From Clostridiales bacterium (GTDB lineage: Bacteria; Bacillota; Clostridia; Christensenellales; Aristaeellaceae): a stretch of DNA of 64,000 bases. The notes under the pieces are model-generated. The model was not told the DNA's origin and ran no database searches. It was given only the letters and a program-made list of their open reading frames with translations. The DNA is taken from contig SFNY01000009.1 in the NCBI GenBank assembly GCA_004554085.1, positions 14,060 through 78,059 on the forward strand, given 5' to 3'. Positions 1 to 35,729 of the stretch are shown one piece after another; the stretch's first letter is position 1, and each line of letters begins with the position of its first letter. Made by a program: the position numbers and the translations under genes.

Positions 1-869
1 TCGTGATGATCGACGTCAACACCAAGAAGGCGCTGGGCGAGGCCATGGACATCCGTCAGGGCACGCCGTTTATGCAGCCCTGCAAGATCTACGCAGGCAG
101 CTATGAGGACGCGGCGGGTTCCGACATCGTCATCGTCACGTCCGGCATCGCCCGCAAGCCCGGCCAGACCCGCCTGGAGCTGTGCCAGATCAACGTCAAC
201 ATTCTCAAGTCCATTACGCCCCAGATCGTGAAGTACGCGCCGGACGCGCTGTACGTGTTCGTCAGCAACCCGGTGGACGTGCTGACCTACGCCTTCAACC
301 GCATCTCCGGCATACCGGAGAGCCGCATCATCGGCTCCGGCACGCTGCTGGACAGCGCGCGCCTGCGCACCCGCATCGCCGAGTGCCTGTCCATCAGCCA
401 CAAGGATGTGCACGCCTTCGTGCTGGGTGAGCACGGCGACAGCTCCTTTGTGCCGTGGAACTCCGTGCGCATCTCCTCGGTGAGCCTTGCCGACTACCGC
501 AAGCACCTGAACTACCGCGAGGACTTCGCCGCGGAGCTGAACCTGGATGAGATCGAGAACTACATCCGCACCTCCGGCGGCAAGATCATCCAGCGCAAGG
601 GCGCGACCTTCTATGCCATCGCCGTGTCCGTGTGCGACATCGTCAAGACCCTGCTCAACGGCAGCGACTCCGTGCTCTGCGTCTCCAGCATGATGCACGG
701 CGAATTCGGCATCGAGGACGTGTGCCTGAGCATTCCCACCATCGTCAACGGCCAGGGCATCAAGGGCACGCTGCTGCCGGATCTCACGCCGGACGAGGTC
801 GCACAGCTCCAGCACAGCGCCGAGGTGCTCAAGGGCGTCATCTCCCAGATCGACTACAGCCAGAACTGA
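1..869 (+). CDS. ldh: L-lactate dehydrogenase (NAD-dependent), 5' end cut by window edge
   Basis: ORF 3..869. LDH signatures 'GIARKPGQTRLEL' (substrate loop) and 'GEHGDSSFVPWN' (catalytic His region). The N-terminal Rossmann segment is missing because the window starts inside the gene. Confidence 0.85.
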   Translation, partial: VMIDVNTKKALGEAMDIRQGTPFMQPCKIYAGSYEDAAGSDIVIVTSGIARKPGQTRLELCQINVNILKSITPQIVKYAPDALYVFVSNPVDVLTYAFNRISGIPESRIIGSGTLLDSARLRTRIAECLSISHKDVHAFVLGEHGDSSFVPWNSVRISSVSLADYRKHLNYREDFAAELNLDEIENYIRTSGGKIIQRKGATFYAIAVSVCDIVKTLLNGSDSVLCVSSMMHGEFGIEDVCLSIPTIVNGQGIKGTLLPDLTPDEVAQLQHSAEVLKGVISQIDYSQN

Positions 870-933
870 TTCCCGGCGGACATTCGGGCCGCTGAACTCC
901 AACGACGATGGTTTTGAGGAGCGATGAACAGAC

Positions 934-1725
934 ATGATTTACAGCTATTATCCCGGTTGCACGCTGAGCACCAAGGCGAAGGAGCTGGACCGCTGCGGTC
1001 GGCTCGCCGCGCAGGCGCTGGGCGTTGAGCTGGAGGAAATCGAGAACTGGCAGTGCTGCGGCGCGGTCTACCCCCAGGCCGAGGATGAGATCGCGACCAA
1101 GCTGTCGGCGGTGCGCGCGCTGAACGCGGCGAAGGAGAAGAACCAGCCTCTGCTCACACTCTGCTCCGCCTGCCATCACGTGATTAAGCGCGTGAACGAC
1201 GACATGGCGAACAACGAGTACATCCGCACCCGCGCGAACAACTACCTGAAGCTGGACGCGCCTTATGCGGGCGAGACCAATGTGGTGCACTACCTCGAGA
1301 TGCTGCGCGACGCGGTGGGCTTTGACAAGATCAAGGCAGCGGTTAAGAAGCCGCTCAAGGGCGTGAAGATCGCCGCCTACTACGGCTGCTTGCTGCTGCG
1401 CCCCAGCGGCGTGATGGCCTTCGACGATCCGGAGAACCCGCAGATCATCGAGGACTTCATCCGCGCCATCGGCGCGACTCCGGTGATTTACAGCCAGCGC
1501 AACGAGTGCTGCGGCGGCTACATGGCCATGGAGGACGAGGGCTACGCACGCAGGCGCGTGGAGCGCATCCTTGCCTCCGCTGCCGAGGCTGGCGCGGAGG
1601 AGATCATCACCGCATGCCCGCTGTGCATGTACAATCTGGCGCACAACGCCGGAGATACAAAGCTTCCGGTGAAGTACTTCACGGAGCTTCTGTATCAGGC
1701 GCTGGGTCTTGGAGAGGAGGCGTAA
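934..1725 (+). CDS. hdrB: Heterodisulfide reductase subunit B-like protein (two CCG domains)
   Basis: 263 aa with GAGGAG RBS upstream. Two CCG-type Cys patterns: PGC..QCCG..CSAC and YGC..ECCGG..CPLC. Confidence 0.85.
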   Translation: MIYSYYPGCTLSTKAKELDRCGRLAAQALGVELEEIENWQCCGAVYPQAEDEIATKLSAVRALNAAKEKNQPLLTLCSACHHVIKRVNDDMANNEYIRTRANNYLKLDAPYAGETNVVHYLEMLRDAVGFDKIKAAVKKPLKGVKIAAYYGCLLLRPSGVMAFDDPENPQIIEDFIRAIGATPVIYSQRNECCGGYMAMEDEGYARRRVERILASAAEAGAEEIITACPLCMYNLAHNAGDTKLPVKYFTELLYQALGLGEEA

Positions 1726-1728
1726 TGA

Positions 1729-2115
1729 ATGGAAGATAAGTACCTTTCCGAACAGATTCTGCGCATGAGCGGCGTAAATCCGAAGAAGTGCATGAAGTGT
1801 GGCAAGTGCTCCGCCACCTGCCCGGCCTACGACGAGATGGAGTACCATCCCCATCAGTTCGTCACCATGGTGCAGAAGGGGCGGATCGAGGAGCTGATGA
1901 ACTCCAAGTCCATCTACATGTGCCTGAGCTGCTTTGCGTGCCTGGAACGCTGCCCGCGCAACGTGGAGCCGGCGAAGCTGATCGAGGCCGTGCGCCTGGC
2001 GGTGGTGCGCCAGCAGGGCATGAACCATATGAAGCCGGACGATGTGCCCGCACTCTTGAACAGCGACCTTCCGCAGCAGGCCATCGTCACGGCCATGCGC
2101 AAGTACAACAAGTGA
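1729..2115 (+). CDS. hdrC: Heterodisulfide reductase subunit C-like 2x[4Fe-4S] protein
   Basis: 128 aa, starting 3 nt after the hdrB stop. Motifs 'CMKCGKCSATCP' and 'CLSCFACLERCP'. Confidence 0.85.
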   Translation: MEDKYLSEQILRMSGVNPKKCMKCGKCSATCPAYDEMEYHPHQFVTMVQKGRIEELMNSKSIYMCLSCFACLERCPRNVEPAKLIEAVRLAVVRQQGMNHMKPDDVPALLNSDLPQQAIVTAMRKYNK

Positions 2116-2130
2116 TAGGAGACAACGATC

Positions 2131-4122
2131 ATGCATAAGATTGGCGTTTTTGTATGCTGGTGCGGAAGCAACATCGCCGCGACCGTGGACGTCAAGCGCG
2201 TCGCGGAGGCGGTGAAGTCGGAACCCGGCGTTGTCTTCAGCACGGATTATCAGTACATGTGCTCCGAGAATGGTCAGGCCACGATTCGCAATGCCATCAA
2301 AGAGTACAAGCTCGACGGCATCGTGGTCTGCTCCTGTTCGCCGCGCATGCACGAGGCCACCTTCCGCAAGACGGCGCTGACCGCGGGGCTGAATCCCTAC
2401 ATGGTGGAGATCGCCAACATCCGCGAGCAGTGCTCCTGGATTCACAAGGACATGCCCGAGGGCACCGAGAAGGCCATCATCCTGGCCCGTGCCGCCATCG
2501 CCAAGGTGCAGCGCAACGCGCCCCTGGTTGCGGGCAGCAGCCCGGTCACCAAGCGCGCGCTGGTCATCGGCGGCGGCATCGCCGGCATTCAGACCGCGCT
2601 GGACGTGGCCGAGGCGGGCTATGAGGTGGATATCGTAGAAAAGTCGCCCACCATCGGCGGACGCATGGCCCAGCTGGACAAAACCTTCCCGACGCTGGAC
2701 TGCGCGGCCTGCATCCTGACCCCCAAGATGGTGGACGCGTCCCAGAACGAAAAGATCAACCTGATCACCTACGCCGAGCTGGAGAGCGTGAGCGGCTTCG
2801 TGGGCAACTTCACCGCGAAGATTCGCAAGAAGGCGCGGTATGTGGACGAGGACAAGTGCACGGGCTGCGGCGTGTGCACCGAGAAGTGCCCCTCCCGCAA
2901 GGGCCTCAACGAGTTCAACATGGGCCTGAACACCCGCGGTGCGGTGTACATTCCCTTCGCCCAGGCGATTCCCAACGTGGCGGTGATCGACAAGAGCCAG
3001 TGCCTGCACTTCAGAACCGGCAAGTGCGGCCTGTGCGAGAAGAACTGCTCCGCCGGGGCCATCAAGTTTGACCAGACCGAGGAGATCCTGGAGCGCAAGT
3101 ACGGCGCGATCATCGTGGCCACGGGCTTTAAGCCCATTGACGCTTCCGCCTTCGACGAGTACGCCTACTGTCAGTCGAAGGACGTGGTGACGAGCCTCGA
3201 GTTCGAGCGACTGATGAACGCCGCAGGCCCCAGCAAGGGAACGCTGGTGTGCCCCAGCGATGGCCGCCATCCCAAGGAGATTGTGTTCGTGCAGTGCGTG
3301 GGCTCCCGCTGCAGCTCTGACGCCAGCAAGGGCAAGGAGTACTGCTCCAAGATCTGCTGCATGTACACCGCCAAGCACGCCATGCTGGTGCGCGAGAAGT
3401 ACCCGGACGTGAAGGTGCACGTGTTCTACATCGACGTGCGCACCCCGGGCAAGAACTTCGATGAATTCTACCGCCGCGCTGTGGAGCAGTACGACGTGGA
3501 CTACATCAAGGGCCAGGTGGGCAAGGTGAGCGTCGAGAACGGCCGCCTGCACGTGCAGGGCAGCAACCTGATCGACAACGAGCAGGTGCACATCGACTGC
3601 GACATGGTGGTGCTGGCCACCGCCATCGAGCCCGATCCCACTGCGCGCGCCATCGGCACCATGCTGACCGCCAGCATGGACACCAACGACTTCTTCACCG
3701 AGGCCCATCCCAAGCTGCGCCCGGTGGAGAGCCCCACCGCCGGTGTGTTCCTCTCCGGCGTGTGCCAGGGCCCCAAGGACATCCCCGAGACCGTGGCCCA
3801 GGCCAGCGCCGCCGCGGCGAAGGTCATCGGCCTGCTCTCCAAGGACAGCCTGACCTGCAATCCCTGCGTGGCGAGCGCCAATCCGCTGCTGTGCAACGGC
3901 TGCTCCCAGTGCGAGAACGTATGTCCCTACGGCGCCATCAGTTACGAGGACAGGGAGGTTCGCGGGCCGGAGTTCCGCGGCGTGAAGCGCGTGGCCGTGG
4001 TCAATGAGGCCGTGTGCCAGGGCTGCGGCGCATGCACCGTCACCTGCCCGTCCACCGCGATGGATTTGAAGGGCTTCTCCAACGAACAGATCATGTCGGA
4101 GGTGGATGCGATATGCCGGTAA
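2131..4122 (+). CDS. hdrA: Heterodisulfide reductase subunit A-like FAD/FeS flavoprotein
   Basis: 663 aa. N-terminal 'VCWCGSNIA', FAD motif 'VIGGGIAGIQTA', and ferredoxin motifs 'CTGCGVCTEKCP', 'CNGCSQCENVCP', 'CQGCGACTVTCP'. Confidence 0.9.
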   Translation: MHKIGVFVCWCGSNIAATVDVKRVAEAVKSEPGVVFSTDYQYMCSENGQATIRNAIKEYKLDGIVVCSCSPRMHEATFRKTALTAGLNPYMVEIANIREQCSWIHKDMPEGTEKAIILARAAIAKVQRNAPLVAGSSPVTKRALVIGGGIAGIQTALDVAEAGYEVDIVEKSPTIGGRMAQLDKTFPTLDCAACILTPKMVDASQNEKINLITYAELESVSGFVGNFTAKIRKKARYVDEDKCTGCGVCTEKCPSRKGLNEFNMGLNTRGAVYIPFAQAIPNVAVIDKSQCLHFRTGKCGLCEKNCSAGAIKFDQTEEILERKYGAIIVATGFKPIDASAFDEYAYCQSKDVVTSLEFERLMNAAGPSKGTLVCPSDGRHPKEIVFVQCVGSRCSSDASKGKEYCSKICCMYTAKHAMLVREKYPDVKVHVFYIDVRTPGKNFDEFYRRAVEQYDVDYIKGQVGKVSVENGRLHVQGSNLIDNEQVHIDCDMVVLATAIEPDPTARAIGTMLTASMDTNDFFTEAHPKLRPVESPTAGVFLSGVCQGPKDIPETVAQASAAAAKVIGLLSKDSLTCNPCVASANPLLCNGCSQCENVCPYGAISYEDREVRGPEFRGVKRVAVVNEAVCQGCGACTVTCPSTAMDLKGFSNEQIMSEVDAICR

Positions 4123-4553
4123 AGAATGAGAATTGGACGCCCACCATCGTTGCCTTCTGCTGCAACTGGTGCTCCTATGCGGGTGCGGATCTGGCGGGTT
4201 CCAGCCGCCTGAGCTATCCGGCGAACGTGAAGATCATCCGCATTCCCTGCTCCTGCCGCCTCAATCCGCTGTTTGTGCTGCGCGCCTTCCAGCGGGGTGC
4301 GGACGGCGTGATCCTCTGCGGCTGCCATCCGGGTGACTGCCACTACACCACCGGCAACTACTACGCCCGCCGCCGCATGACGCTGCTGTTCTCCATGCTG
4401 GACTACCTGGGCATCGACCGCCGCCGCACCCGCGTGGAGTGGGTGTCCGCAGCGGAGGGTGCGAAGTTCTCCGCAACCATGAACGACTTCGCCAAGACCA
4501 TCACGGAGCTGGGCGAAAACAAGAAACTGGGGGATCTCAGATGCAAAGAATGA
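4113..4553 (+). CDS. mvhD: MvhD/FlpD (FlxD)-type 2Fe-2S electron-transfer protein
   Basis: Internal ATG at 4113 of ORF 4014..4553, overlapping the hdrA stop by 10 nt. 'FCCNWCSYAGADLAG..IRIPCSCRLNP..ILCGCHPGDCHY' is the MvhD signature. Confidence 0.85.
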   Translation: MPVKNENWTPTIVAFCCNWCSYAGADLAGSSRLSYPANVKIIRIPCSCRLNPLFVLRAFQRGADGVILCGCHPGDCHYTTGNYYARRRMTLLFSMLDYLGIDRRRTRVEWVSAAEGAKFSATMNDFAKTITELGENKKLGDLRCKE

Positions 4554-5512
4554 TGATTGACAGGGCGAAGGAACTCCTCGCCAGCGGTCAGGTCAACCGC
4601 GTCCTCGGCTGGGAGCAGGGCGAGCATTCCTGGGATCGCACGCCCGCGTTCTTTGACGAGGGGAACATCGAAAACCTCAAGTACGACGGCTTCTGTGGGC
4701 CGAACGTGAGCAAATATCTGGTGGGCGAGGCCGCCAAGGACGGCGCGGTGCTGGCCTTCCTCAAGCCCTGCGACAGCTGGAGCTTCAACCAGCTGGCCAC
4801 CGAGCACCGCATCAACACTGAAAAGATCTACGCAATCGGCGTGGGCTGCCGGGGCAAGATCGACGTGGAGAAGGTTCGTGCCAAGGGGATCAAGGGCATC
4901 CTCGACATTGCGGAGGACGGCGATACCCTTAAGGTACACACCCTCTACGGCGACAGCACCGTCGAGCGCAGGGAAGTTCTGCTGGACAAGTGCCTCTCCT
5001 GCAAGGGCAAGGAGCACAAGGCAGGTGCGGAATTCATCGGCGAGTCTGAGGAGACCAGCGTGGGCGACAAGTTTGAGCTGGTCGCAAAGCTCGAAGCCAT
5101 GACTCCGGACGAGCGCTTCGCCTTCTGGAGGAGCGAGCTTTCCAAGTGCATCCGCTGCAACGCCTGCCGCAACGTCTGCCCGGCGTGCAGCTGCATCAAG
5201 TGTGTGTTTGACAATCCCCACACGGGCGTTCAGAACAAGGCCGCTGCGGACGACTTCGAGGAGAACCTCTTCCACATCATCCGCGCCTTCCACGTGGCCG
5301 GACGCTGCACCGACTGCGGCGAGTGCAGCCGCGTGTGCCCTCAGGGCATTCCGCTGCACCTGCTGAACCGCAAGTTCATCAAGGATATCGACGAGCTCTA
5401 CGGCGAGTATCGCGCGGGTGCGGAGATCGGCCAGCGCCACCCGCTGGAGAACTTCGACAAGGGCGACTGTGAGCCCAGCATCGTGCACGAGAGGGGAGGG
5501 AGCGCCCAATGA
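4541..5512 (+). CDS. FlxC-like iron-sulfur protein (4Fe-4S dicluster; F420-hydrogenase-beta/AsrA-related)
   Basis: ATG at 4541 inside ORF 4439..5512, overlapping the mvhD stop by 13 nt. Motifs 'CIRCNACRNVCPACSC' and 'CTDCGECSRVCP'. Size and position match FlxC of Flx-Hdr clusters. Confidence 0.7.
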   Translation: MQRMMIDRAKELLASGQVNRVLGWEQGEHSWDRTPAFFDEGNIENLKYDGFCGPNVSKYLVGEAAKDGAVLAFLKPCDSWSFNQLATEHRINTEKIYAIGVGCRGKIDVEKVRAKGIKGILDIAEDGDTLKVHTLYGDSTVERREVLLDKCLSCKGKEHKAGAEFIGESEETSVGDKFELVAKLEAMTPDERFAFWRSELSKCIRCNACRNVCPACSCIKCVFDNPHTGVQNKAAADDFEENLFHIIRAFHVAGRCTDCGECSRVCPQGIPLHLLNRKFIKDIDELYGEYRAGAEIGQRHPLENFDKGDCEPSIVHERGGSAQ

Positions 5513-6522
5513 AGAAGATCGCAATGGCGTCCCTGAACGCTCTGTTTGCAAGGATTGCGACGGACAAGAAGCTCTATCTGCCCATCGAGAAGGCGGGCAA
5601 GGTGGACTTCTACGAGTGGAGCGAGGGCGAAAATGTGCGCCTGGACGCGCTCAAGACCGTGAAGTCCGCCAAGGACGTGTTCTTCCCGCAGGTGGAGAAC
5701 CTGCTGAAGTTCCGCGTGGAGGGCAAGTCCATCGAGATCAATCAGGCCCCGCTGTGCGAGGAGGACTTCGTGATCTTCGGCGTGCGCGGCTGCGACGCGA
5801 AGAGCTTCGAGATTCTGGATCGCGTGTTCCTGGTGGATCCCCGCGATGAATTCTACGCATCCCGCCGCGCCCACGGCATCGTGGTCACGCTGGCCTGCGG
5901 CGAGCCCGAGGAGAGCTGCTTCTGCACAAATTTCGGCGTGAATCCCGCCAATCCCGGCGGCGACGTGACCGCCTGGATCGTGGGCGAGGAAATGCTGCTC
6001 CAGGCCAATACTGAAAAGGGCGAAAAGCTGATCGCGGAGCTGGACGAGGCAAATGCGAAGGCGGCTGCGGATGAGCAGGCGCGCATCTCCGAAATCGTTG
6101 AGAAGCTGCCGCTGAACGGCCTCAATCTGGAGGGCTTTGACGGCGAGCACCTGATGGAGAAGTTCAACGATCCCAAGTGGGAGGGCCTCTCCCGGGCGTG
6201 CCTGGGCTGCGGCACCTGCACCTTCGTGTGCCCCACCTGCCAGTGCTACGACATCCGCGACTTCGACAACGGCAAGTCTGTCACCCGCTACCGCTGCTGG
6301 GACAGCTGCATGTACTCCGATTTCACGCTGATGGCTGCCGAAAACAGCCGTCACACCCAGCTGCAGCGCTACCGCCAGCGCTTCATGCACAAGCTGGTGT
6401 ACTTCCCGGCGAACAACGAGGGCGTCTACTCCTGCGTGGGCTGTGGCCGCTGCGTGGAGAAGTGCCCGCAGGGACTCAACATCGTGCGGGTCATCAAGGC
6501 ACTGGGGGTGAATGAGAAATGA
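5509..6522 (+). CDS. FlxB-like iron-sulfur protein (AsrA / sulfhydrogenase-beta family)
   Basis: 337 aa with a 4-nt ATGA overlap with the upstream gene. Motifs 'CLGCGTCTFVCPTCQCYD' and 'CVGCGRCVEKCP'. Confidence 0.75.
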   Translation: MKKIAMASLNALFARIATDKKLYLPIEKAGKVDFYEWSEGENVRLDALKTVKSAKDVFFPQVENLLKFRVEGKSIEINQAPLCEEDFVIFGVRGCDAKSFEILDRVFLVDPRDEFYASRRAHGIVVTLACGEPEESCFCTNFGVNPANPGGDVTAWIVGEEMLLQANTEKGEKLIAELDEANAKAAADEQARISEIVEKLPLNGLNLEGFDGEHLMEKFNDPKWEGLSRACLGCGTCTFVCPTCQCYDIRDFDNGKSVTRYRCWDSCMYSDFTLMAAENSRHTQLQRYRQRFMHKLVYFPANNEGVYSCVGCGRCVEKCPQGLNIVRVIKALGVNEK

Positions 6523-7346
6523 CGAACAACCTGATTCCGATGCTGGGCGTCGTCACCGACATCCGCGTCGACACCCCGGACATCAAGACCTTCCGCGTGG
6601 AGAAGATCGGCGGCGGCAAGTGCTTCGAGCACCAGCCCGGCCAGTGCGCCATGCTGTCCATTCCCGGCGTGGGAGAGGCCATGTTCTCCATCACCTCATC
6701 TCCCACGCTGAAGGAGTACCAGGAGTTTTCCATTAAAAAGTGCGGCTGCCTCACCAGCTGGCTGCACCTGATGGACGTGGGCCAGCAGATCACCATCCGC
6801 GGACCCTACGGCAATCCCTTCCCGGTGGACACCGAGCTCAAGGGCAAGGATCTGCTGTTCATCGCCGGCGGCGTGGGCCTGGCTCCGCTGCACTCGGTCA
6901 TCAACTACTGCCTGGCCAAGCGCGAGAACTACGGCAAGATCGACGTGGTCTACGGCTCCCGCTCCAAGGACGACCTGCTGGACCTTCATGAGATTCAGAC
7001 CGAGTGGATGAAGCCGGAGAACGACCTGAGCGTGCACCTGACCATCGACCGCGCCCAGGAGGGCTGGGACGGCCACGTGGCCTTCGTGCCCACCTACGTC
7101 AAGGAGCTGGGCTTCGATCCCAACAAGACGGTGCTGGTCTGCGGCCCGCCGATCATGATCAAGTTCGTGCTTCAGGCGCTGGAGGAGCTGGGCTTCAAGC
7201 GCAATCAGATCTACACCACCATGGAGCTGCGCATGAAGTGCGGCATCGGCAAGTGCGGAAGGTGCAACATCGGCGACAAGTACGTCTGCAAGGACGGCCC
7301 GGTATTCCGCTTCGACCAGCTGGGCGAGCTGCCCAACGAGTATTGA
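6519..7346 (+). CDS. FlxA-like FAD/NAD(P)H-binding oxidoreductase with C-terminal 2Fe-2S (AsrB/HydG/PyrK family)
   Basis: 275 aa with a 4-nt overlap with the upstream gene. Ferredoxin-reductase fold ('LFIAGGVGLAPL') and terminal 'CGIGKCGRCNIG'. Confidence 0.8.
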   Translation: MTNNLIPMLGVVTDIRVDTPDIKTFRVEKIGGGKCFEHQPGQCAMLSIPGVGEAMFSITSSPTLKEYQEFSIKKCGCLTSWLHLMDVGQQITIRGPYGNPFPVDTELKGKDLLFIAGGVGLAPLHSVINYCLAKRENYGKIDVVYGSRSKDDLLDLHEIQTEWMKPENDLSVHLTIDRAQEGWDGHVAFVPTYVKELGFDPNKTVLVCGPPIMIKFVLQALEELGFKRNQIYTTMELRMKCGIGKCGRCNIGDKYVCKDGPVFRFDQLGELPNEY

Positions 7347-7362
7347 TTCGGAGGCGATCACA

Positions 7363-8037
7363 ATGGCAGAATTGGTCAATGTTTTTCTGTACGGCAAGAA
7401 ATATGAGGTTCCCTCCGATCTGACGATCATGGAGGCAATGGAATACGCCGGCTACAAGCTGGTGCGCGGCTGCGGCTGCCGCAACGGCTTCTGCGGCGCG
7501 TGCGCCACGGTGTACCGCATCAAGGGCGACCGCGAGCTGAAGGCCTGCCTGGCCTGCTCCACCCAGGTGCAGGACAACATGTACGTGGCGACGCTGCCCT
7601 TCTTCCCGCTCATCAAGGAGGGCTACGACATCGAGAAGGTTCCCACGGACGAGTCCATTATGATGCAGCTCTATCCGGAGATCTACGCCTGCGTGGGCTG
7701 CAACGCCTGCACCAACGCCTGCTCCCAGGGCCTGAACGTGATGCAGTACATCGCTTACGCCCAGCGCGGCGACTACAAGAAGTGCGCGGAGCTGTCCTTC
7801 GACTGCGTGATGTGCGGCATCTGCTCCTCCCGCTGCCCGGCGGGCATCTCCCATCCTCAGGTGGCCATGCTGGCCCGGCGCATCAACGGAAAGTACATCG
7901 CGCCGGAGTCCAAGCACCTCACCGAGCGCGTGAAGGAGATTCAGGACGGCCTGTGCGCGGAGGCGCTGGAGGCCATCATGGCAAAGCCCGTCGAGGAGCT
8001 CAAGGAGCTCTATAACCACCGCGACATCGAGAAGTGA
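7363..8037 (+). CDS. Succinate dehydrogenase/fumarate reductase iron-sulfur subunit-like protein
   Basis: 224 aa. N-terminal 2Fe-2S pattern 'CGCRNGFCGAC..C', then 'CVGCNACTNAC' and 'CVMCGICSSRCP', arranged as in SdhB/FrdB. Confidence 0.7.
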   Translation: MAELVNVFLYGKKYEVPSDLTIMEAMEYAGYKLVRGCGCRNGFCGACATVYRIKGDRELKACLACSTQVQDNMYVATLPFFPLIKEGYDIEKVPTDESIMMQLYPEIYACVGCNACTNACSQGLNVMQYIAYAQRGDYKKCAELSFDCVMCGICSSRCPAGISHPQVAMLARRINGKYIAPESKHLTERVKEIQDGLCAEALEAIMAKPVEELKELYNHRDIEK

Positions 8038-8050
8038 GGAGGGCGGCAGT

Positions 8051-9652
8051 ATGATTTTCACCGAGGAAATGCTTGCATCCATGAAAAAGGTTGAGGCTGC
8101 CCGCGAAGCAAACATTGCGCTGGAGCCCCGCCGCATGACCGCCGAGGAGAAGGAAAAGCTGCTGGCGGACTATCATCCGGACTACAAGGACGACGGCTTC
8201 ACCACCATCCGCATCGGCGGCAACAAGGGCCAGAAGTGCCCGGTTGAGCTCAACGAGATGCTGGAGGGTCGCAGCCGCGTGCTGGACATGAAGGTGGACC
8301 TGGATAAGGTCGATTACGACGTGGACGTGCTGGTCATCGGCGGCGGCGGCGCGGGTTCCTCCGCGGCCATCGAGGCCCATGCGGCTGGTGCGAACGTGAT
8401 GATCGTCACCAAGCTGCGCATCGGCGACGCCAACACCATGATGGCTGAGGGCGGCATTCAGGCCGCCGACAAGCCCGGCGACTCCCCGGCGCAGCACTAT
8501 CTGGACGTGATGGGCGGCGGACACTACTGCAACCGCCCCGAGCTGGTCAAGAAGTTGGTCAACGACGGCCCCGAGGCCATTCAGTGGCTGAATCGGCTGG
8601 GCGTGGAGTTTGACAAGGCCGAGGACGGCACCATGATCACCACCCACGGCGGCGGCACCAGCCGCAAGCGCATGCACGCGGCGGCGGATTACTCCGGCGC
8701 GGAGATCATGCGCACGCTGCGCGACGAGGTGCTCAACCGGGGCATTCCGGTGGTGGACTTCACCGCGGCCATCGAGTTGATTCTGGACGAGAACGGCCAT
8801 GCCGCAGGCGCGGTGCTGCTGAACATGGAGACGGGCGAGGTGCGCGTTGCGCGCGCGAAGTGCGTGATCCTGGCCACCGGCGGCGCGGGCCGCATGCACT
8901 ACCAGGGCTTCCCGACCTCCAACCACTACGGCGCGACGGCGGACGGCCTGGTGCTGGCCTATCGTGCGGGCGCAAAGCTGCTGTATCAGGACACCCTGCA
9001 GTACCATCCCACCGGCGTGGCGTTCCCGAAGCAGATCTACGGCGCGCTGGTCACCGAGAAGGTGCGCTCCATGGGCGCGAAGCTGGTCAACAGCGAGGGC
9101 GAGGTCTACGTGCATCCGCTGGAGACCCGCGACGTGAATGCTGCGGCCCTGATTCGCGAGTGCTCCACCAACGGCAAGGGCGTTCCGACCCCCGACGGCG
9201 GACGCGCCGTGTGGCTGGACACCCCCATGATCGATATGATTCACGGCGAGGGCACGCTGGAGAAGCGCCTGCCGGCCATGCTGCGCATGTATCTGAAGTT
9301 CGGCATCGACATGCGCAAGACCCCGATCCTGGTGTATCCCACGCTGCACTATCAGAACGGCGGCATCGAGATTACCGTGGACGGTCAGAGCGGCGTGGAG
9401 AACCTCTTCGTTGCGGGCGAGGCCGTCGGCGGCATCCACGGGCGCAACCGCCTGATGGGCAACAGCCTGCTGGACATCATCGTGTTCGGCCGCAACGCCG
9501 GTCAGCAGGCCGCGAAGAAGGCCAGAGGCGTGACCGTGGGCAAGCTGAGCCTGGAGCATGTGAACAGGTACGAGGCGGAGCTGGAGGCACTGGGCGTGAA
9601 GGATCAGGCCGCGTCTCCCAAGCTGCTGCCGGACTACACCCGCAAGTTTTAA
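8051..9652 (+). CDS. Soluble FAD-dependent oxidoreductase of the fumarate reductase/succinate dehydrogenase/L-aspartate oxidase flavoprotein family
   Basis: 533 aa. 'VLVIGGGGAGSSAA' dinucleotide fold, 'LQYHPTG', 'ETRDV', 'HYQNGGI', 'GEAVGGIHGRNRLMGNSLLD'. No His at the covalent-FAD position ('DANTMMAEGG'). Confidence 0.75.
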   Translation: MIFTEEMLASMKKVEAAREANIALEPRRMTAEEKEKLLADYHPDYKDDGFTTIRIGGNKGQKCPVELNEMLEGRSRVLDMKVDLDKVDYDVDVLVIGGGGAGSSAAIEAHAAGANVMIVTKLRIGDANTMMAEGGIQAADKPGDSPAQHYLDVMGGGHYCNRPELVKKLVNDGPEAIQWLNRLGVEFDKAEDGTMITTHGGGTSRKRMHAAADYSGAEIMRTLRDEVLNRGIPVVDFTAAIELILDENGHAAGAVLLNMETGEVRVARAKCVILATGGAGRMHYQGFPTSNHYGATADGLVLAYRAGAKLLYQDTLQYHPTGVAFPKQIYGALVTEKVRSMGAKLVNSEGEVYVHPLETRDVNAAALIRECSTNGKGVPTPDGGRAVWLDTPMIDMIHGEGTLEKRLPAMLRMYLKFGIDMRKTPILVYPTLHYQNGGIEITVDGQSGVENLFVAGEAVGGIHGRNRLMGNSLLDIIVFGRNAGQQAAKKARGVTVGKLSLEHVNRYEAELEALGVKDQAASPKLLPDYTRKF

Positions 9653-9747
9653 TTTCTGATTTTCGTTTCGCCGCCATGCAGGAAAGCGGCTGTGTGGCGG
9701 CGAATTCAGCAATGGAGTTGAATGACTGAGATAGGAGGCGCCGGTTC

Positions 9748-10872
9748 ATGAATTCGCTGCTCGCAGTGTTCCTGATCGCTGCCCTGGGTTACTTCATCGG
9801 CGGCATTCGCATCAAGGGAATTGAATTGGGCACGGCCGGCGTGCTGCTGGTTGCCCTGGTATTCGGCCATTTCGGCGTGGAGATTCCCTCCATCATCCGA
9901 AATTTCGGCCTTGCACTGTTCGTCTGCTCGGTGGGCTTCATCGCCGGGCCGAAGTTTTTCCGCGACTTCAAGAGCAACGCCGCGAGTTACATCCTGCTGG
10001 GCTTTCTCATCATCCTGTCCGGCGGAATCTGCGCGGTGCTGGTCTCGCTGATCGGCGGCATCCGCCCGGAGCTGTCCGTGGGCCTGCTCACCGGCGCGCT
10101 CACCAGCACGCCCGGCCTGGCTGCGGCGCAGGAGGCGGCGGGGGAGCTTGCGGATCTTGCCACCACCGGCTACGCCATCGCCTATCCCTTCGGCGTGATC
10201 GGCGTGGTGCTGTTCGTGCAGCTCGTGCCGCGCATCATGAAGGTGGACATGGCGGAGGAGCGCGCCCACTTCGAGGCTGCGCACACCGCCAAGATCAAGA
10301 GATACGACGGCTGGCTGTTCAAGTTTGACCAGGGCGGCTTCTTCGCGTTCATGATTGCGGTCGTGCTGGGCATCCTGCTGGGCAATGTGCATGTGCCGCT
10401 GCCCGGCGGCGCAAGCTTCTCGCTGGGCACCACCGGCGGCCCGCTGATCATGGGCCTGCTGTTCGGCCACTTCGCCCACGTGGGCCATCTGGATCTCACG
10501 GTTCCGGTGGAGGAGCTCAAGACCTTCCGCGAGCTGGGCCTGATGCTGTTCCTCATCGGCGCTGGCGTAAGCGGCGGCGCGGGCTTCGTGGATACGCTGA
10601 AGAAGGAGGGCGTGATCCTCTTCGTGTACGGCGCGATCATGACCCTGGTTCCGATGTTCGTGGGCTTCTTTGTGGCGAAAAAGGTGCTGAAGCTGCGGCT
10701 GCTGAACAACCTCGGCTCCATCACCGGCGGCATGACCTCCACGCCCGCGCTGGGCACGCTCATCAGCGTGGCCAAGACGGACGACGTGGCCTCTGCCTAT
10801 GCGGCGACCTATCCCATCGCGCTGGTGGCGGTCGTGCTCTGTGCACAGTTTATTGTGATCCTGCTTGGATGA
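9748..10872 (+). CDS. AspT/YidE/YbjL (AAEx) family transporter, short form without TrkA-C domains
   Basis: 374 aa polytopic membrane protein. The two halves share the family motif ('GALTSTPGLAAA' and 'GGMTSTPALGTL'). Confidence 0.7.
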   Translation: MNSLLAVFLIAALGYFIGGIRIKGIELGTAGVLLVALVFGHFGVEIPSIIRNFGLALFVCSVGFIAGPKFFRDFKSNAASYILLGFLIILSGGICAVLVSLIGGIRPELSVGLLTGALTSTPGLAAAQEAAGELADLATTGYAIAYPFGVIGVVLFVQLVPRIMKVDMAEERAHFEAAHTAKIKRYDGWLFKFDQGGFFAFMIAVVLGILLGNVHVPLPGGASFSLGTTGGPLIMGLLFGHFAHVGHLDLTVPVEELKTFRELGLMLFLIGAGVSGGAGFVDTLKKEGVILFVYGAIMTLVPMFVGFFVAKKVLKLRLLNNLGSITGGMTSTPALGTLISVAKTDDVASAYAATYPIALVAVVLCAQFIVILLG

Positions 10873-10921
10873 GGCCGGAGGGGATTTCCCGGCCCATTCT
10901 GACGAAATAGGAGGTACGGAT

Positions 10922-11161
10922 ATGAAGATTCAGATTTGCGTTGGCAGCACCTGCCATCTTTGCGGTTCCAAGAAGGTCGTCACCCGCTTCCAGGAGCTGG
11001 TTGCGGAGAACAATCTGCAGGCGGAGGTCGAACTGTCCGGCAAGTTCTGCATGGGCAAGTGCGGCGAGGGCGTGAGCGTCATGATCGGCGACACCGTGTA
11101 TTCCGTAAAGCCGGAGGAAGTGGACGAGTTCTTCAAGAACGAGGTTCTGGCAAAGATCTAA
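10922..11161 (+). CDS. Thioredoxin-like [2Fe-2S] ferredoxin (NuoE/HydC-like small subunit)
   Basis: ATG at 10922 with AGGAGG RBS inside ORF 10865..11161. Motifs 'CVGSTCHLCG' and 'CMGKCGEG'. Confidence 0.75.
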   Translation: MKIQICVGSTCHLCGSKKVVTRFQELVAENNLQAEVELSGKFCMGKCGEGVSVMIGDTVYSVKPEEVDEFFKNEVLAKI

Positions 11162-11245
11162 AGAAAAGGTGCGCAAGACCGGCGGCTCCGATCGGGGGCT
11201 GCCGGTCTGTGCAATCCGCGCGGACTGCGCATACGGGAGGTAAAC

Positions 11246-12595: not shown

Positions 12596-13757
12596 ACTCT
12601 ACACCGATACCGGCTGCATGACCCTGACCAAGTTCGGCGAGCAGCTCTGCGGGGACCACATCGAGTTCCGGCTGGATGACCACGTCTCCATCTGCGTGCT
12701 GGCCGACGGCCTGGGCAGCGGCGTCAAGGCAAATATTCTGGCCACGCTCACGTCCCAGATTCTGGCGACGATGAGCGTTGGCGGCATGTCCATCGAGGAC
12801 TGCGTGGACACCATCGTCCGCACCCTGCCCCAGTGCAGCGTGCGCCACGTCAACTACTCTACTTTCACCATCGTCAAGATTCGCGACCAGAAGTACGTGG
12901 AGCTGACCCGCTTCGACAATCCCCACACGGTGGTGTTGCGCGACGGCAAGAACTACGAATTCAAGTACCACTCCCGCATGATCGAGGACAAGCGCATCTT
13001 CTTCTCCAGCTTCGAGGCCCAGGAGAACGATGTGATCGTGGTCATGAGCGACGGCGCGATCTTTGCGGGCCTGGGCGGACAGTACCCCTTCGGCTGGGGT
13101 CGCGACAAGATCATCGAATACCTGGAGGAGCACTACCGCTCGGACATGACCGCCAAGGGCGTGGCCATGCTGCTGGCCCGGGAGTGCAACCGACTCTACG
13201 AGGGCAAGCCGGGGGACGACACCTCCTTCGCGGTGATGCGCGTCTGCGCCCGCGAGGCGGTGAACCTGATGATCGGCCCGCCCTCCGCCATGAACCTGGA
13301 CACCGAGATGGTCAGCCAGTTCTTCGCCTCCGAGGGCATGCACATCGTCTGCGGCGGCTCCACCAACCGCATCGCGGCGCGCTATCTGGGCAAGGAGGTG
13401 CACGCCAGCCTGAACTACGGCGAGAGCGACCTCCCGCCGATCTATTCGCTGGAGGGCGTTGACCTCGCCACCGAGGGCGTGGTGACCATCTCCAAGGTAC
13501 TGGAGTACGCCCAGGAGTACCTGGACGGCACCCAGCTCAACCCCGTGTGGAAGCTCAACAGCGACGGCGCGGCCTGCATCGCCCACGCGCTGTTTGAGTA
13601 CGCCACCGACGTGCACTTCTTCGTGGGCTGCGCCATCAACCCGGCCCATCAGAATCCCAGCCTGCCCATCGCCTTCGGCGCGAAGTTCCAGCTGATCGAC
13701 CAGCTGAGCAAGTGCCTGGAGAAGATGGGAAAGAAGGTCACGGTGCGCTTCTTCTGA
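12588..13757 (+). CDS. PP2C/SpoIIE-family serine phosphatase with an uncharacterised C-terminal domain
   Basis: 389 aa, overlapping the hydrogenase gene by 8 nt. Motifs 'CGDHIEF..VLADGLGSGVKA' and 'MSDGA..GDDTSF' fit PP2C metal-binding patterns. Confidence 0.75.
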   Translation: MHELYTDTGCMTLTKFGEQLCGDHIEFRLDDHVSICVLADGLGSGVKANILATLTSQILATMSVGGMSIEDCVDTIVRTLPQCSVRHVNYSTFTIVKIRDQKYVELTRFDNPHTVVLRDGKNYEFKYHSRMIEDKRIFFSSFEAQENDVIVVMSDGAIFAGLGGQYPFGWGRDKIIEYLEEHYRSDMTAKGVAMLLARECNRLYEGKPGDDTSFAVMRVCAREAVNLMIGPPSAMNLDTEMVSQFFASEGMHIVCGGSTNRIAARYLGKEVHASLNYGESDLPPIYSLEGVDLATEGVVTISKVLEYAQEYLDGTQLNPVWKLNSDGAACIAHALFEYATDVHFFVGCAINPAHQNPSLPIAFGAKFQLIDQLSKCLEKMGKKVTVRFF

Positions 13758-17559: not shown

Positions 17560-17575
17560 GAAGGAGGGCGAAGCA

Positions 17576-33565: not shown

Positions 33566-33575
33566 AGAAGTGCAA

Positions 33576-35705: not shown

Positions 35706-35729
35706 CTATGTTCTCATTCCTTTCATGTA

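What the first reader, a model, noticed from the sequence alone, without database searches (positions are those of the whole stretch)
1..9652. ldh-hdrBCA-mvhD-flxCBA-like-frdBA-like: a ten-gene soluble redox cluster that may be an electron-bifurcating complex with fumarate (or an unknown disulfide) as high-potential acceptor
What the sequence shows:
- Nine same-strand ORFs (934..9652) are packed with gaps of 16 nt or less, or with overlaps. hdrA/mvhD overlap by 10 nt, mvhD and the next gene by 13 nt, and there are ATGA overlaps at 5509 and 6519.
- ldh ends only 64 nt upstream, with no terminator-like T-run between.
- HdrB keeps both CCG Cys motifs, so a thiol/disulfide site looks intact.
- HdrA has the FAD fold plus several ferredoxin motifs.
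- The three genes after mvhD match FlxC, FlxB and FlxA in size and Cys patterns.

Established knowledge:
- FlxABCD-HdrABC is a proposed flavin-based electron-bifurcating NADH oxidoreductase in Desulfovibrio. Its disulfide acceptor outside sulfate reducers is unknown.
- Methanogen thiol:fumarate reductase links thiol oxidation to fumarate reduction.

Inference: the direct fusion of an Hdr-Flx operon to an SdhB/SdhA-like pair is not an arrangement I recognise as characterised. It could be (a) an NADH + ferredoxin : fumarate bifurcating or confurcating enzyme, or (b) a thiol/disulfide shuttle between Hdr and a thiol:fumarate-reductase-like module. The adjacent ldh could supply or consume the NADH.
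Basis: partly seen in the sequence, partly recalled or inferred. Interest (0 to 1): 0.78.

Follow-up and report, generated by a model that had tools for sequence, protein, structure and literature searches.

The report
Hdr-Flx-linked soluble fumarate reductase operon
This gut Clostridia gene cluster most likely encodes a soluble, quinone-independent enzyme complex that reduces fumarate to succinate with NADH and probably reduces ferredoxin at the same time; the arrangement has been proposed in the literature but never shown biochemically.

Summary
Ten same-strand genes (3-9652) are packed as described, and an eleventh gene, a membrane transporter (9748-10872), follows.

- **Linkage:** the nine-gene block hdrBCA-mvhD-flxCBA-frdBA is present in 53 of 53 related genomes that have enough flanking DNA.
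- **The "ldh":** it carries Arg at the Gln102 position that defines lactate dehydrogenases, so it is probably a malate dehydrogenase.
- **Fumarase:** in 44 related loci a class II fumarase sits between this gene and hdrB. It is absent from this window.
- **Flavoprotein:** it keeps the fumarate-binding His/Arg set. It lacks the His for covalent FAD and the C-terminal domain, and it has a conserved ~90-residue N-terminal extension.
- **Distant relatives:** family members in Asgard and other archaeal MAGs sit beside hdrCB with Mvh hydrogenase or FrhB-like genes where Flx sits here. In a sulfur-oxidiser gammaproteobacterial contig the pair sits in a reductive-TCA cluster.

Best reading: an oxaloacetate-to-succinate operon built around an NADH:fumarate(+ferredoxin) oxidoreductase.

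The idea is not new. It was proposed for Pseudoclostridium thermosuccinogenes (2019/2020) and for tubeworm symbionts (2019). I found no biochemical proof in the paper library searched. This is a new member of a known, uncharacterised kind.

The parts
3..869 (+). LDH/MDH-family dehydrogenase, cut at the window edge (about 28 N-terminal residues missing). Predicted NAD-dependent malate dehydrogenase, not a lactate dehydrogenase.
   Evidence: Ldh_1_N and Ldh_1_C domains. TIGR01771 L-LDH scores 308.9 bits, just above its 303.55 cutoff. The substrate-discriminating position 102 is Arg (..SGIARKPGQTR..), whereas true LDHs in PDB alignments have Gln. Arg is invariant in all 46 motif matches found in the related loci. 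The Q102 rule is used in PMC13147460.
934..1725 (+). HdrB-like subunit with two complete CCG motifs, which bind non-cubane [4Fe-4S] clusters in methanogen HdrB.
   Evidence: PF02754 CCG, two stretches. Full-length match to methanogen HdrB structures 8rvv_B and 5odc_B, E=4e-35. The best NCBIfam hit is SdhE of methylmenaquinol:fumarate reductase at 159.8 bits, then HdrB at 145.3 bits. Cysteines read directly from the translation: C8, C40C41, C77xxC80 and C152, C183C184, C219xxC222.
1729..2115 (+). HdrC-like subunit with two [4Fe-4S] motifs.
   Evidence: Fer4_8 and Fer4_17. TIGR03290 HdrC 68 bits, QmoC 60.6 bits.
2131..4122 (+). HdrA, an FAD plus multi-[4Fe-4S] subunit homologous over its full length to the electron-bifurcating subunit of methanogen Hdr.
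   Evidence: NF040770 HdrA2 795.7 bits. 5odc_A E=1e-195 over residues 3-661.
4113..4553 (+). MvhD/FlxD-type [2Fe-2S] connector subunit.
   Evidence: PF02662 FlpD 182 bits. Matches the C-terminal MvhD part of HdrA2 and VhuD. Overlaps hdrA by 10 nt.
4541..5512 (+). FlxC-like Fe-S protein.
   Evidence: Fer4_8 and Fer4_9 at residues 199-270. Weak AsrA and HydB matches. 17 Cys. Conserved in position in all related loci.
5509..6522 (+). FlxB-like Fe-S protein, homologous to the sulfhydrogenase beta subunit and AsrA.
   Evidence: Fer4_22 106 bits. ShyB 178.9, HydB 163.9 and AsrA 143.3 bits. PDB 9nez_B sulfhydrogenase beta, E=1.6e-42.
6519..7346 (+). FlxA-like NAD(P)H-binding flavoprotein with a C-terminal [2Fe-2S] site. 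Predicted entry point for NADH.
   Evidence: NAD_binding_1 and DHODB_Fe-S_bind. HydG, ShyC, AsrB and PRK08345 hits at 170-222 bits. Flx subunits are defined as homologues of Pyrococcus soluble hydrogenase subunits (PMC10084766).
7363..8037 (+). SdhB/TfrB-N-terminal-like Fe-S subunit with predicted 1x[2Fe-2S] and 2x[4Fe-4S]. It has no CCG domain.
   Evidence: Fer2_4, Fer2, Fer2_3 plus Fer4_9 and Fer4_8. TfrB residues 18-148 and dhsB matches. Cysteines read directly from the translation: C39x4C44x2C47x14C62; C110xxC113xxC116xxxC120; C148xxC151xxC154xxxC158P. A natural FrdB-FrdA fusion exists (P0152).
8051..9652 (+). Fumarate-reductase-type flavoprotein of a distinct subfamily: ~90-residue N-terminal extension, non-covalent FAD, no C-terminal Sdh/Frd domain.
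   Evidence: FAD_binding_2 230.6 bits at residues 92-473, with no PF02910. TfrA 337.7 bits, ahead of Sdh/Frd 280.6 and NadB 275.5, all below their cutoffs. H319, T335/E336, R360, H433 and R467 align with catalytic and dicarboxylate-binding residues as I recall them for E. coli SdhA. The covalent-FAD His is replaced by N128. These residues are invariant in close relatives (A1); in distant relatives (A2) all but T335 (Ser in some) and N128 are invariant.
9748..10872 (+). Membrane transporter of the Asp-Al_Ex (AAE) family. Putative succinate or C4-dicarboxylate exporter.
   Evidence: PF06826, two stretches, 249.7 bits. 75 strongly hydrophobic 19-residue windows, against none in the ten redox proteins. 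Present within 2.5 kb downstream of frdA in 36 of 62 related loci. The P. thermosuccinogenes operon ends with a putative succinate transporter.

Best explanation
The cluster is the core of an oxaloacetate-to-succinate ('succinate') operon.

Pathway (inferred):
- The first gene is probably an NADH-dependent malate dehydrogenase.
- Fumarase is encoded inside the operon in most relatives but lies elsewhere in this genome.
- The last gene probably exports succinate.

The nine genes in between encode one soluble complex with no quinone-binding anchor. The proposed electron path is inferred from homology, not shown:
1. NADH enters at FlxA (FAD, 2Fe-2S).
2. Electrons pass through the FlxB and FlxC Fe-S clusters and the MvhD-like FlxD to the FAD of HdrA.
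3. At HdrA the electron pair is split. The low-potential electron leaves through the HdrA ferredoxin-like domains to ferredoxin.
4. The high-potential electron runs through HdrC to the HdrB CCG clusters, then the FrdB clusters (2Fe-2S plus two 4Fe-4S), then the non-covalently bound FAD of FrdA, and finally to fumarate.

Net reaction: 2 NADH + fumarate + 2 Fd(ox) -> 2 NAD+ + succinate + 2 Fd(red).

In this view HdrB plus FrdB together are a split equivalent of methanogen TfrB. The HdrB clusters act as a wire to FrdB and do not reduce a free disulfide. Reduced ferredoxin would then be used by hydrogenase, Rnf or CO2-reducing enzymes. This lets a quinone-free fermenter conserve energy from fumarate reduction.
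For: Shown here:
1. All nine proteins have the expected domains and cofactor motifs.
2. The nine genes are translationally coupled and lack internal terminators.
3. The block is present in 53 of 53 related Clostridia loci with enough DNA.
4. Pathway neighbours point to fumarate. An Arg102 MDH-type gene lies upstream in 44 of 49 loci. Class II fumarase lies between it and hdrB in 44 loci. An AAE transporter lies downstream in 36 of 62.
5. The flavoprotein keeps the full fumarate-binding and catalytic residue set and lacks the covalent-FAD His. From established knowledge of E. coli FrdA His44 mutants, non-covalent FAD favours fumarate reduction over succinate oxidation.
6. None of the ten redox proteins has a transmembrane-like segment, and there is no SdhC/D.
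7. The frdBA pair recurs next to hdrC-hdrB across large distances with different input modules:
   - an Asgard MAG has hdrA-mvhDGA-hdrCB-frdBA;
   - an unnamed contig (L083) has an hdrA/mvhD fusion next to hdrCB-frdBA;
   - a contig labelled Halobacteria archaeon (L084) has hdrCBA plus mvhD plus an FrhB-like gene plus frdBA;
   - a Bathyarchaeota genome has malic enzyme, fumarase alpha/beta and frdBA;
   - a gammaproteobacterial sulfur-oxidiser-type contig has mdh-frdBA-korAB.

Thermodynamics: NADH + fumarate gives -58 kJ/mol (table in PMC13147460). From standard potentials, reducing 2 ferredoxin with NADH costs about +19 to +35 kJ.

Literature: in P. thermosuccinogenes the equivalent operon is co-regulated, about 4-fold up under CO2 limitation, and H2 addition abolishes succinate formation (PMC7282089).
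Against: - No enzymology exists for any member of this family in the library searched.
- Bifurcation by Flx-Hdr is itself only 'proposed' in Desulfovibrio.
- HdrB keeps both complete CCG motifs, so a thiol/disulfide intermediate is not excluded.
- Fumarase is absent from this window, so the pathway is not complete locally.
- The ldh-like protein passes the NCBIfam L-LDH cutoff.
- Subunit contacts between HdrB and FrdB could not be modelled, and my AlphaFold model of FrdA was poor (pLDDT 56.8).
- Sequence-level orthology to the P. thermosuccinogenes genes was not tested.
Confidence: 0.6

Rival explanations
1. Non-bifurcating soluble NADH:fumarate reductase. The same eleven genes and complex, but HdrA serves only as an electron wire and no ferredoxin is reduced. 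This would resemble the five-subunit soluble NADH-dependent fumarate reductase of Hydrogenobacter thermophilus.
For: A multi-subunit soluble NADH-FRD is an established enzyme type (Miura 2008, as summarised in PMC13147460). Nothing in the sequence proves that ferredoxin is a substrate.
Against: HdrA is a full-length homologue of the bifurcating subunit and includes its ferredoxin-like domains (655 bits to 5odc_A). Keeping seven extra Fe-S and flavin subunits to run a reaction that releases 58 kJ/mol without coupling seems wasteful. In archaeal relatives the same HdrCB-FrdBA unit pairs with Mvh, the classic bifurcating partner. H2 inhibits succinate formation in P. thermosuccinogenes.
Confidence: 0.2
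2. Thiol/disulfide shuttle. [quoted passage not shown] A separate thiol:fumarate reductase activity of FrdBA then reoxidises the thiol.
For: Both CCG motifs of HdrB are intact. The flavoprotein's best model is methanogen TfrA. Rubin-Blum et al. call the symbiont genes tfrAB.
Against: FrdB has no CCG domain, which is the thiol-handling part of TfrB; it matches only TfrB residues 18-148. I saw no thiol-carrier gene such as DsrC in the window genes I scanned. CCG proteins also serve as partner subunits of Sdh/Frd-type enzymes, as the SdhE best hit indicates. The tight hdrCB-frdBA adjacency, conserved from Clostridia to Asgard MAGs, fits a physical complex better than a diffusible shuttle.
Confidence: 0.12
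3. The flavoprotein is not a fumarate reductase. It would be an L-aspartate oxidase-like enzyme or another enoate reductase that uses Hdr-Flx as its redox partner.
For: NadB models score nearly as well as Sdh/Frd models (275 against 281 bits). Several relatives are annotated 'L-aspartate oxidase' in public sources.
Against: All NadB cutoffs are missed. NadB has no Fe-S partner, whereas this protein is always paired with, and once fused to, an SdhB-like subunit. The neighbours are MDH, fumarase, malic enzyme and the OGOR genes korAB, not nadA or nadC.
Confidence: 0.04
4. The Hdr-Flx module serves, or also serves, the MetFV methylene-tetrahydrofolate reductase encoded 7 kb downstream. This would resemble the HdrCBA-MvhD-MetVF gene cluster I recall from Moorella.
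For: MetV (16918-17559) and MetF (17576-18496) lie in the window without hdr genes of their own, and CODH/ACS genes are also present.
Against: metVF is not linked to the cluster in any of the 80 related loci. Six genes separate it from the cluster here: a transporter, a Trx-like [2Fe-2S] protein, a hydrogenase-like sensor, a PP2C phosphatase, a regulator and ABC transporter genes.
Confidence: 0.05

Closest known systems
'Succinate operon' of Pseudoclostridium thermosuccinogenes: fumarate hydratase, Flx-Hdr (7 genes), fumarate reductase (2 genes), putative succinate transporter (Koendjbiharie & van Kranenburg 2019 preprint; PMC7282089)
   Same: Same gene content and order as the related loci here: fumarase, seven hdr/flx genes, two frd genes, transporter. 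Same proposed function, NADH-driven fumarate reduction coupled to ferredoxin reduction.
   Different: This window lacks the fumarase gene and starts with an Arg102 LDH-family (MDH-type) gene. The host is a mesophilic gut Aristaeellaceae-type MAG.
tfrAB / korABCD interspersed with flxABCD-hdrABC in tubeworm symbionts and Thioflavicoccus (Rubin-Blum 2019, PMC6315080; Mitchell 2024)
   Same: Same flavoprotein subfamily. The gammaproteobacterial sulfur-oxidiser branch is 47% identical and shares the N-terminal extension. Same idea of an Flx-Hdr-coupled fumarate reductase.
   Different: There it serves an autotrophic reductive TCA cycle and is linked to 2-oxoglutarate:ferredoxin oxidoreductase. Here it sits in a fermentative reductive branch with an exporter.
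FlxABCD-HdrABC of Desulfovibrio vulgaris (Ramos 2015)
   Same: Same seven subunit types. Flx subunits are homologous to Pyrococcus sulfhydrogenase subunits.
   Different: The gene order is reversed (hdrBCA-flxDCBA). The proposed high-potential acceptor in Desulfovibrio is DsrC disulfide. Here FrdBA replaces it and no DsrC was seen.
Methanogen thiol:fumarate reductase TfrAB
   Same: It is the best-scoring curated model for the flavoprotein. FrdB resembles the N-terminal half of TfrB, and HdrB resembles its CCG half.
   Different: The TfrA cutoff is missed (338 against 718 bits). The CCG domain is on a separate protein. There is an extra N-terminal extension and the C-terminal domain is missing. 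The organism is not a methanogen, so a CoM/CoB thiol pair is not expected (not tested).
Mvh-Hdr and HdrA2B2C2 of methanogens (structures 5odc, 7bkb, 8rvu)
   Same: HdrA, HdrB, HdrC and MvhD are full-length homologues.
   Different: The electron donor is NADH through Flx, not H2, formate or F420H2. The acceptor is fumarate through FrdBA, not CoM-S-S-CoB.
Five-subunit soluble NADH-dependent fumarate reductase of Hydrogenobacter thermophilus (Miura 2008)
   Same: A soluble, multi-subunit, NADH-linked, quinone-independent fumarate reductase.
   Different: Different subunit set and scattered genes. No bifurcation has been reported. No sequence comparison was made here.

Membership tests
FlxABCD-HdrABC NADH dehydrogenase/heterodisulfide reductase | HdrA with FAD fold and multiple [4Fe-4S] motifs | tested here: met
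   HdrA2 model 795.7 bits. 5odc_A E=1e-195 over the full length.
FlxABCD-HdrABC NADH dehydrogenase/heterodisulfide reductase | HdrB with two CCG motifs, and HdrC with two [4Fe-4S] motifs | tested here: met
   PF02754 two stretches. All ten Cys of the two CCG motifs read directly from the sequence and aligned to HdrB structures. HdrC TIGR03290 68 bits.
FlxABCD-HdrABC NADH dehydrogenase/heterodisulfide reductase | FlxD is an MvhD-like protein. FlxA, FlxB and FlxC are homologues of Pyrococcus soluble-hydrogenase subunits without a catalytic subunit. | tested here: met
   FlpD 182 bits. FlxA-like matches HydG/ShyC at 170-190 bits. FlxB-like matches ShyB/HydB at 164-179 bits and 9nez_B at 1.6e-42. 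FlxC-like matches only weakly. Definition taken from PMC10084766. No direct comparison with D. vulgaris sequences was made.
FlxABCD-HdrABC NADH dehydrogenase/heterodisulfide reductase | NADH-dependent bifurcation to ferredoxin and a disulfide | not testable with these tools
   Requires enzymology.
Sdh/Frd flavoprotein (SdhA/FrdA) | FAD_binding_2 fold with catalytic His/Thr-Glu/Arg/His/Arg | tested here: met
   PF00890 230.6 bits. H319, T335, E336, R360, H433 and R467 align with E. coli SdhA residues H242, T254, E255, R286, H354 and R399 (alignment; SdhA numbering recalled from memory). All six are invariant in A1; all but T335, which is Ser in some distant relatives, are invariant in A2.
Sdh/Frd flavoprotein (SdhA/FrdA) | His for covalent FAD attachment, and the C-terminal domain PF02910 | tested here: not met
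   His is replaced by N128 (DANT), which is invariant among close relatives. There is no PF02910 hit and the protein ends 22 residues after the TfrA match. Curated Sdh/Frd cutoffs are missed (280.6 against 567.3 bits).
Thiol:fumarate reductase TfrAB | TfrA equivalog score, and TfrB as an SdhB-like plus CCG fusion | tested here: not met
   TfrA 337.7 bits against a cutoff of 718. FrdB matches only TfrB residues 18-148 and has no CCG domain.
L-aspartate oxidase (NadB) | NadB equivalog score, stand-alone flavoprotein, nadA/nadC context | tested here: not met
   TIGR00551 272.8 bits against a cutoff of 452.75. The protein is always paired with an Fe-S subunit. No NAD-biosynthesis family appeared in the Pfam scans of the window genes.
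L-lactate dehydrogenase (for gene 3-869) | Gln at position 102 (pyruvate specificity) | tested here: not met
   Arg here and in all 46 motif matches in the related loci. Rule as used in PMC13147460. TIGR01771 is nevertheless just above its cutoff (308.9 against 303.55 bits), so the lineage is LDH-like while the predicted substrate is oxaloacetate.
Flx-Hdr-linked fumarate reductase ('succinate operon' type) | Co-linear fumarase/MDH, hdr-flx (7 genes), frdBA, transporter | tested here: met
   53 of 53 loci hold the nine genes, 44 of 49 have the upstream MDH-like gene, 44 loci have fumC, and 36 of 62 have the transporter. This window lacks fumC.
Flx-Hdr-linked fumarate reductase ('succinate operon' type) | Sequence orthology to P. 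thermosuccinogenes CDQ83_RS03315-03365 | not tested

The most novel reading that the evidence does not exclude
HdrCB-FrdBA may be an old, portable fumarate-reducing output module of Hdr-type bifurcating complexes. In it the CCG clusters of HdrB wire electrons straight into an SdhB-like subunit and do not reduce a disulfide. The input module would be interchangeable: Flx for NADH in gut Clostridia and sulfur-oxidising Gammaproteobacteria, Mvh [NiFe] hydrogenase for H2 in Asgard archaea, and an FrhB-like subunit in other archaea. That would define a new class of flavin-based electron-bifurcating enzymes with fumarate as the high-potential acceptor. It would be present in hundreds of gut and rumen species and would give quinone-free fermenters an energy-conserving route to succinate.
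Probability: 0.4. Interest if true: 0.75.

Novelty: new member of a known kind. Interest (0 to 1): 0.5.

Why it matters
If the complex works as proposed, fumarate joins crotonyl-CoA, caffeyl-CoA and heterodisulfide as a high-potential acceptor that drives ferredoxin reduction by flavin-based bifurcation. This would explain how strictly fermentative Clostridia without quinones or cytochromes can gain energy from making succinate.

The family is widespread. The 80 best loci kept are mostly from human, ruminant and poultry gut Clostridia. It could therefore bear on gut succinate and hydrogen budgets.

It also offers a cultured entry point for biochemistry, Christensenella tenuis NSJ-35. In addition, it flags a systematic annotation problem: MDH-type enzymes are called L-LDH, and the flavoprotein is called 'FAD-dependent oxidoreductase' or 'aspartate oxidase'.

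Tried and rejected
1. **AlphaFold2 model of the flavoprotein.** Built from 20 close homologues, it gave mean pLDDT 56.8. It was too poor for fold search or for judging the N-terminal extension, so I did not use it. Only close homologues could be supplied to the job.
2. **Fumarase in the window.** tblastn with the fumC of L012 found nothing in the 64 kb.
3. **Linkage of metVF, the HTH regulator or the ABC genes to the cluster.** Absent from all 80 loci, so I rejected these as part of the system.
4. **The H2-sensor-like module downstream** (Trx-like 2Fe-2S, HydS-like protein, PP2C). The Trx-like gene is found in 9 related loci, and the full set with good identity only in L008. It is not a conserved part.
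5. **Seven literature searches for a biochemically proven bifurcating fumarate reductase**. They returned only proposals.
6. **Taillefer 2015** (PMC4357940, C. thermocellum MDH) is not held in the library. I therefore could not check whether PDB 1y6j, which also has Arg102, is the characterised MDH.
7. **Promoter and terminator scans** were uninformative. Counts equalled those in shuffled sequence. The hairpin at 9669-9702 has no T-run.
8. **A proper phylogeny against named TfrA, NadB, SdhA and AprA sequences** was not possible because no named sequence set could be imported. I used HMM bit-score ranking and signature residues as a proxy.

Full report
**Observation**

- hdrB-like 934-1725.
- hdrC-like 1729-2115.
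- hdrA 2131-4122.
- mvhD/flxD 4113-4553, overlapping hdrA by 10 nt.
- flxC-like 4541-5512, overlapping by 13 nt.
- flxB-like 5509-6522 and flxA-like 6519-7346, both with ATGA overlaps.
- An SdhB-like gene at 7363-8037.
- A 533-residue flavoprotein gene at 8051-9652.
- The ldh-like gene (3-869, cut by the window edge) ends 64 nt before hdrB, with no T-run in between.

Terminator-like sites are no more frequent than in shuffled sequence, and none falls in an intergenic gap of the cluster.

Pfam and NCBIfam confirm every domain assignment. HdrA and HdrB are full-length homologues of the structurally solved methanogen subunits. HdrA matches 5odc_A at E=1e-195 and HdrB matches 8rvv_B at E=4e-35.

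None of the ten proteins has a transmembrane-like segment. The next gene (9748-10872) is a two-domain Asp-Al_Ex membrane transporter. The unit therefore has eleven genes, not ten.

**Is the linkage real?**

I kept the best 80 loci, at 70-83% identity. Nearly all are gut or rumen Clostridia MAGs, plus the cultured Christensenella tenuis NSJ-35.
- Every one of the 53 loci with at least 7.25 kb upstream of frdA carries all nine hdr-flx-frd genes. In 52 they are colinear on one strand.
- In loci cut short by contig ends, no gene expected from the available DNA is missing.
- The linkage is therefore a fixed feature of this protein family in Clostridia.

The exact proteins of the window occur on a 188,765-bp contig. 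Near-identical cluster mates are labelled Aristaeellaceae bacterium.

**What the neighbours say**

In 44 of 49 loci with enough DNA, an ldh-like gene lies upstream of hdrB. In 44 loci a 454-residue class II fumarase (MEYRIEHDSMGE...) sits between the two genes. In this window, and in L006, L062, L064 and L070, the fumarase is missing and the ldh-like gene abuts hdrB. No fumC is found anywhere in the 64 kb.

The ldh-like protein reads ..SGIARKPGQTR.. and so has Arg at the position that is Gln102 in lactate dehydrogenases:
- PDB alignments show Gln in bona fide LDHs (4m1q, 8ab2).
- Arg is invariant in all 46 motif matches found in the related loci.
- Gln102 is the criterion used to separate LDH from MDH (PMC13147460, citing Brochier-Armanet and Madern 2021).
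- The protein nevertheless scores just above the NCBIfam L-LDH cutoff (308.9 against 303.55 bits).

It therefore belongs to an LDH-like lineage but is predicted to act on oxaloacetate. This is an inference, not an assay.

A transporter of the Asp-Al_Ex family lies within 2.5 kb downstream in 36 of 62 loci. From memory, this family includes the Corynebacterium succinate exporter SucE.

Taken together, the conserved order is MDH, fumarase, nine redox genes, exporter. That is the reductive branch from oxaloacetate to exported succinate.

**The flavoprotein and its Fe-S partner**

The flavoprotein scores best against methanogen TfrA (337.7 bits), then Sdh/Frd (280.6) and NadB (275.5). All are below their curated cutoffs.

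Alignment to E. coli SdhA shows:
- H319, T335/E336, R360, H433 and R467 at the positions of the catalytic and dicarboxylate-binding residues. The SdhA residue numbering I used is from memory.
- N128 (DANT) in place of the His that carries covalent FAD.
- These residues are invariant among close relatives. Among distant relatives all but T335 (Ser in some) and N128 are invariant, and every extension-bearing relative still lacks the His.

The protein also has a conserved ~90-residue N-terminal extension, with an HPDY motif and no Cys. It lacks the C-terminal Sdh/Frd domain.

A search of 1.84 billion cluster representatives shows that only a handful of 50%-identity clusters share the extension, at 41-56% identity. 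The ordinary Sdh/Frd/NadB-like hits start at query residue ~89. Of the three aligned, two have the covalent-FAD His and all three have the C-terminal domain. One extension-bearing relative, P0152, is a natural FrdB-FrdA fusion.

FrdB has an SdhB-type [2Fe-2S] motif and two complete CxxCxxCxxxC motifs, so two [4Fe-4S] clusters are predicted. It has no CCG domain (and direct reading of the sequence).

**Deep relatives**

The 56%-identity branch comes from archaeal MAGs labelled Bathyarchaeota, Asgardarchaeia and one Halobacteria. The 47% branch comes from gammaproteobacterial sulfur oxidisers. These include the Ridgeia tubeworm endosymbiont, Sedimenticola and Thiorhodococcus.

Their contexts are telling:
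- An Asgard contig has hdrA, mvhD, mvhG, mvhA, hycI, hdrC, hdrB, frdB, frdA.
- An unnamed contig (L083) has an hdrA/mvhD fusion next to hdrC-hdrB-frdB-frdA.
- A contig labelled Halobacteria archaeon (L084) has hdrC, hdrB, hdrA, a 977-residue flavo-Fe-S protein, mvhD, an FrhB-like gene, frdB, frdA.
- A Bathyarchaeota genome has malic enzyme, fumarase alpha and beta, frdB, frdA.
- The gammaproteobacterial contig has mdh-like, frdB, frdA, a NuoF-like gene and 2-oxoglutarate:ferredoxin oxidoreductase genes.

The constant core is frdBA, mostly with hdrCB, next to C4-dicarboxylate enzymes. The electron-input module varies.

**Mechanism**

The homology and linkage described above are shown. The rest of this section is inferred.
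1. NADH enters at FlxA.
2. Electrons travel through FlxB, FlxC and FlxD to the HdrA flavin, which bifurcates.
3. One electron goes to ferredoxin.
4. The other passes through HdrC and the HdrB CCG clusters into FrdB and the FrdA flavin, and then to fumarate.

Supporting points:
- HdrB's best curated match is SdhE, the CCG subunit of a methylmenaquinol:fumarate reductase. This shows that CCG proteins already serve as partners of Sdh/Frd-type enzymes.
- HdrB plus FrdB together resemble a split TfrB.
- The energetics allow it. NADH plus fumarate releases about 58 kJ/mol. From standard potentials, reducing two ferredoxins with NADH costs about 19-35 kJ/mol.
- From established knowledge of FrdA His44 mutants, non-covalent FAD favours the reductive direction.

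I put 0.6 on the bifurcating version and 0.2 on a non-bifurcating NADH:fumarate reductase. A thiol-shuttle version gets 0.12. Another substrate, or service to the nearby MetFV, gets about 0.05 each.

**Comparison with what is known**

The idea is already in print:
- Koendjbiharie and co-workers describe a 'succinate operon' in P. thermosuccinogenes: fumarate hydratase, a seven-gene Flx-Hdr complex, a two-gene fumarate reductase and a putative succinate transporter.
  - It rises about 4-fold under CO2 limitation.
  - They note that H2 abolishes succinate formation (PMC7282089).
- Rubin-Blum et al. proposed the same coupling for tfrAB, korABCD and flxABCD-hdrABC in tubeworm symbionts (PMC6315080).
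- A 2026 review still calls it a suggestion, supported by co-expression (PMC13147460).

Seven literature searches found no enzymological proof.

The window therefore holds a new member of a known but uncharacterised kind. What this analysis adds:
- The strict conservation of the nine-gene block across gut Clostridia.
- The signature of the flavoprotein subfamily.
- The MDH reinterpretation of the 'ldh'.
- The observation that archaeal relatives carry Mvh or FrhB-like genes where Flx sits here. I did not check whether this last point has been published.

**Limits**
- There is no biochemistry and no multimer model.
- The single-chain AlphaFold model was poor.
- Orthology to the P. thermosuccinogenes genes rests on matching gene order, not on sequence comparison.
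- The fumarase of this genome was not located.

Noticed in passing
window 10865-13757: Directly after the transporter lie a thioredoxin-like [2Fe-2S] protein (98 aa), a HydS-like [FeFe]-hydrogenase-domain protein with a C-terminal 'FeS' domain (449 aa) and a PP2C/SpoIIE phosphatase (389 aa). From memory, this resembles hfs-type H2-sensing regulatory modules. An H2 sensor beside a ferredoxin-producing fumarate reductase would fit the reported H2 inhibition of succinate formation. However, the full set with good identity recurs only in L008, and the Trx-like gene recurs in 9 loci.
   Followed up: partly
window 16918-18496: MetV (DUF5981) and MetF (MTHFR) genes lie here without adjacent hdr or mvhD genes, 7 kb from the hdr-flx cluster. 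The proximity is not conserved in any of the 80 related loci.
   Followed up: yes
window 32679-39213: Wood-Ljungdahl pathway genes on the minus strand: 5-formyl-THF cyclo-ligase, acetyl-CoA synthase (709 aa), CooC and CODH (655 aa), with a multi-[4Fe-4S] ferredoxin-like gene (128 aa) on the plus strand. The organism may use CO2 reduction as a sink for reduced ferredoxin, which could link to the proposed ferredoxin output of the fumarate reductase.
   Followed up: no
L082 4141-4143: In the Asgard MAG locus, hdrA is interrupted by an in-frame TGA, after which the HdrA sequence continues (..KIANI*KISHDTWGFLKEVHPKLRPVESPT..). This is possibly a selenocysteine codon and not a pseudogene. The gene caller left the region uncalled.
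   Followed up: partly
window 3-869 and PDB 1y6j: The closest solved structure, 1y6j, is deposited as Clostridium thermocellum 'L-lactate dehydrogenase'. It also has Arg at position 102 (ANRKPGETR), so it may be a malate dehydrogenase. The NCBIfam L-LDH model would name this whole Arg102 group as LDH.
   Followed up: partly
P0152: A 727-residue metagenomic protein is a natural fusion of the FrdB-like Fe-S subunit to the FrdA-like flavoprotein. This supports the view that the two form one enzyme.
   Followed up: yes
L057, L065, L073: Three related loci are filed under Treponema sp., Bacteroidaceae and Bacteroides uniformis MAGs. Their genes are about 72-75% identical to the Clostridia versions in the same order, so mis-binned contigs seem more likely than transfer.
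   Followed up: no
window 9669-9702: An inverted repeat (CGCCGCCA...TGGCGGCG, 18-nt loop) lies between frdA and the transporter gene, with no following T-run. It could be an mRNA processing or stability element, or chance.
   Followed up: no
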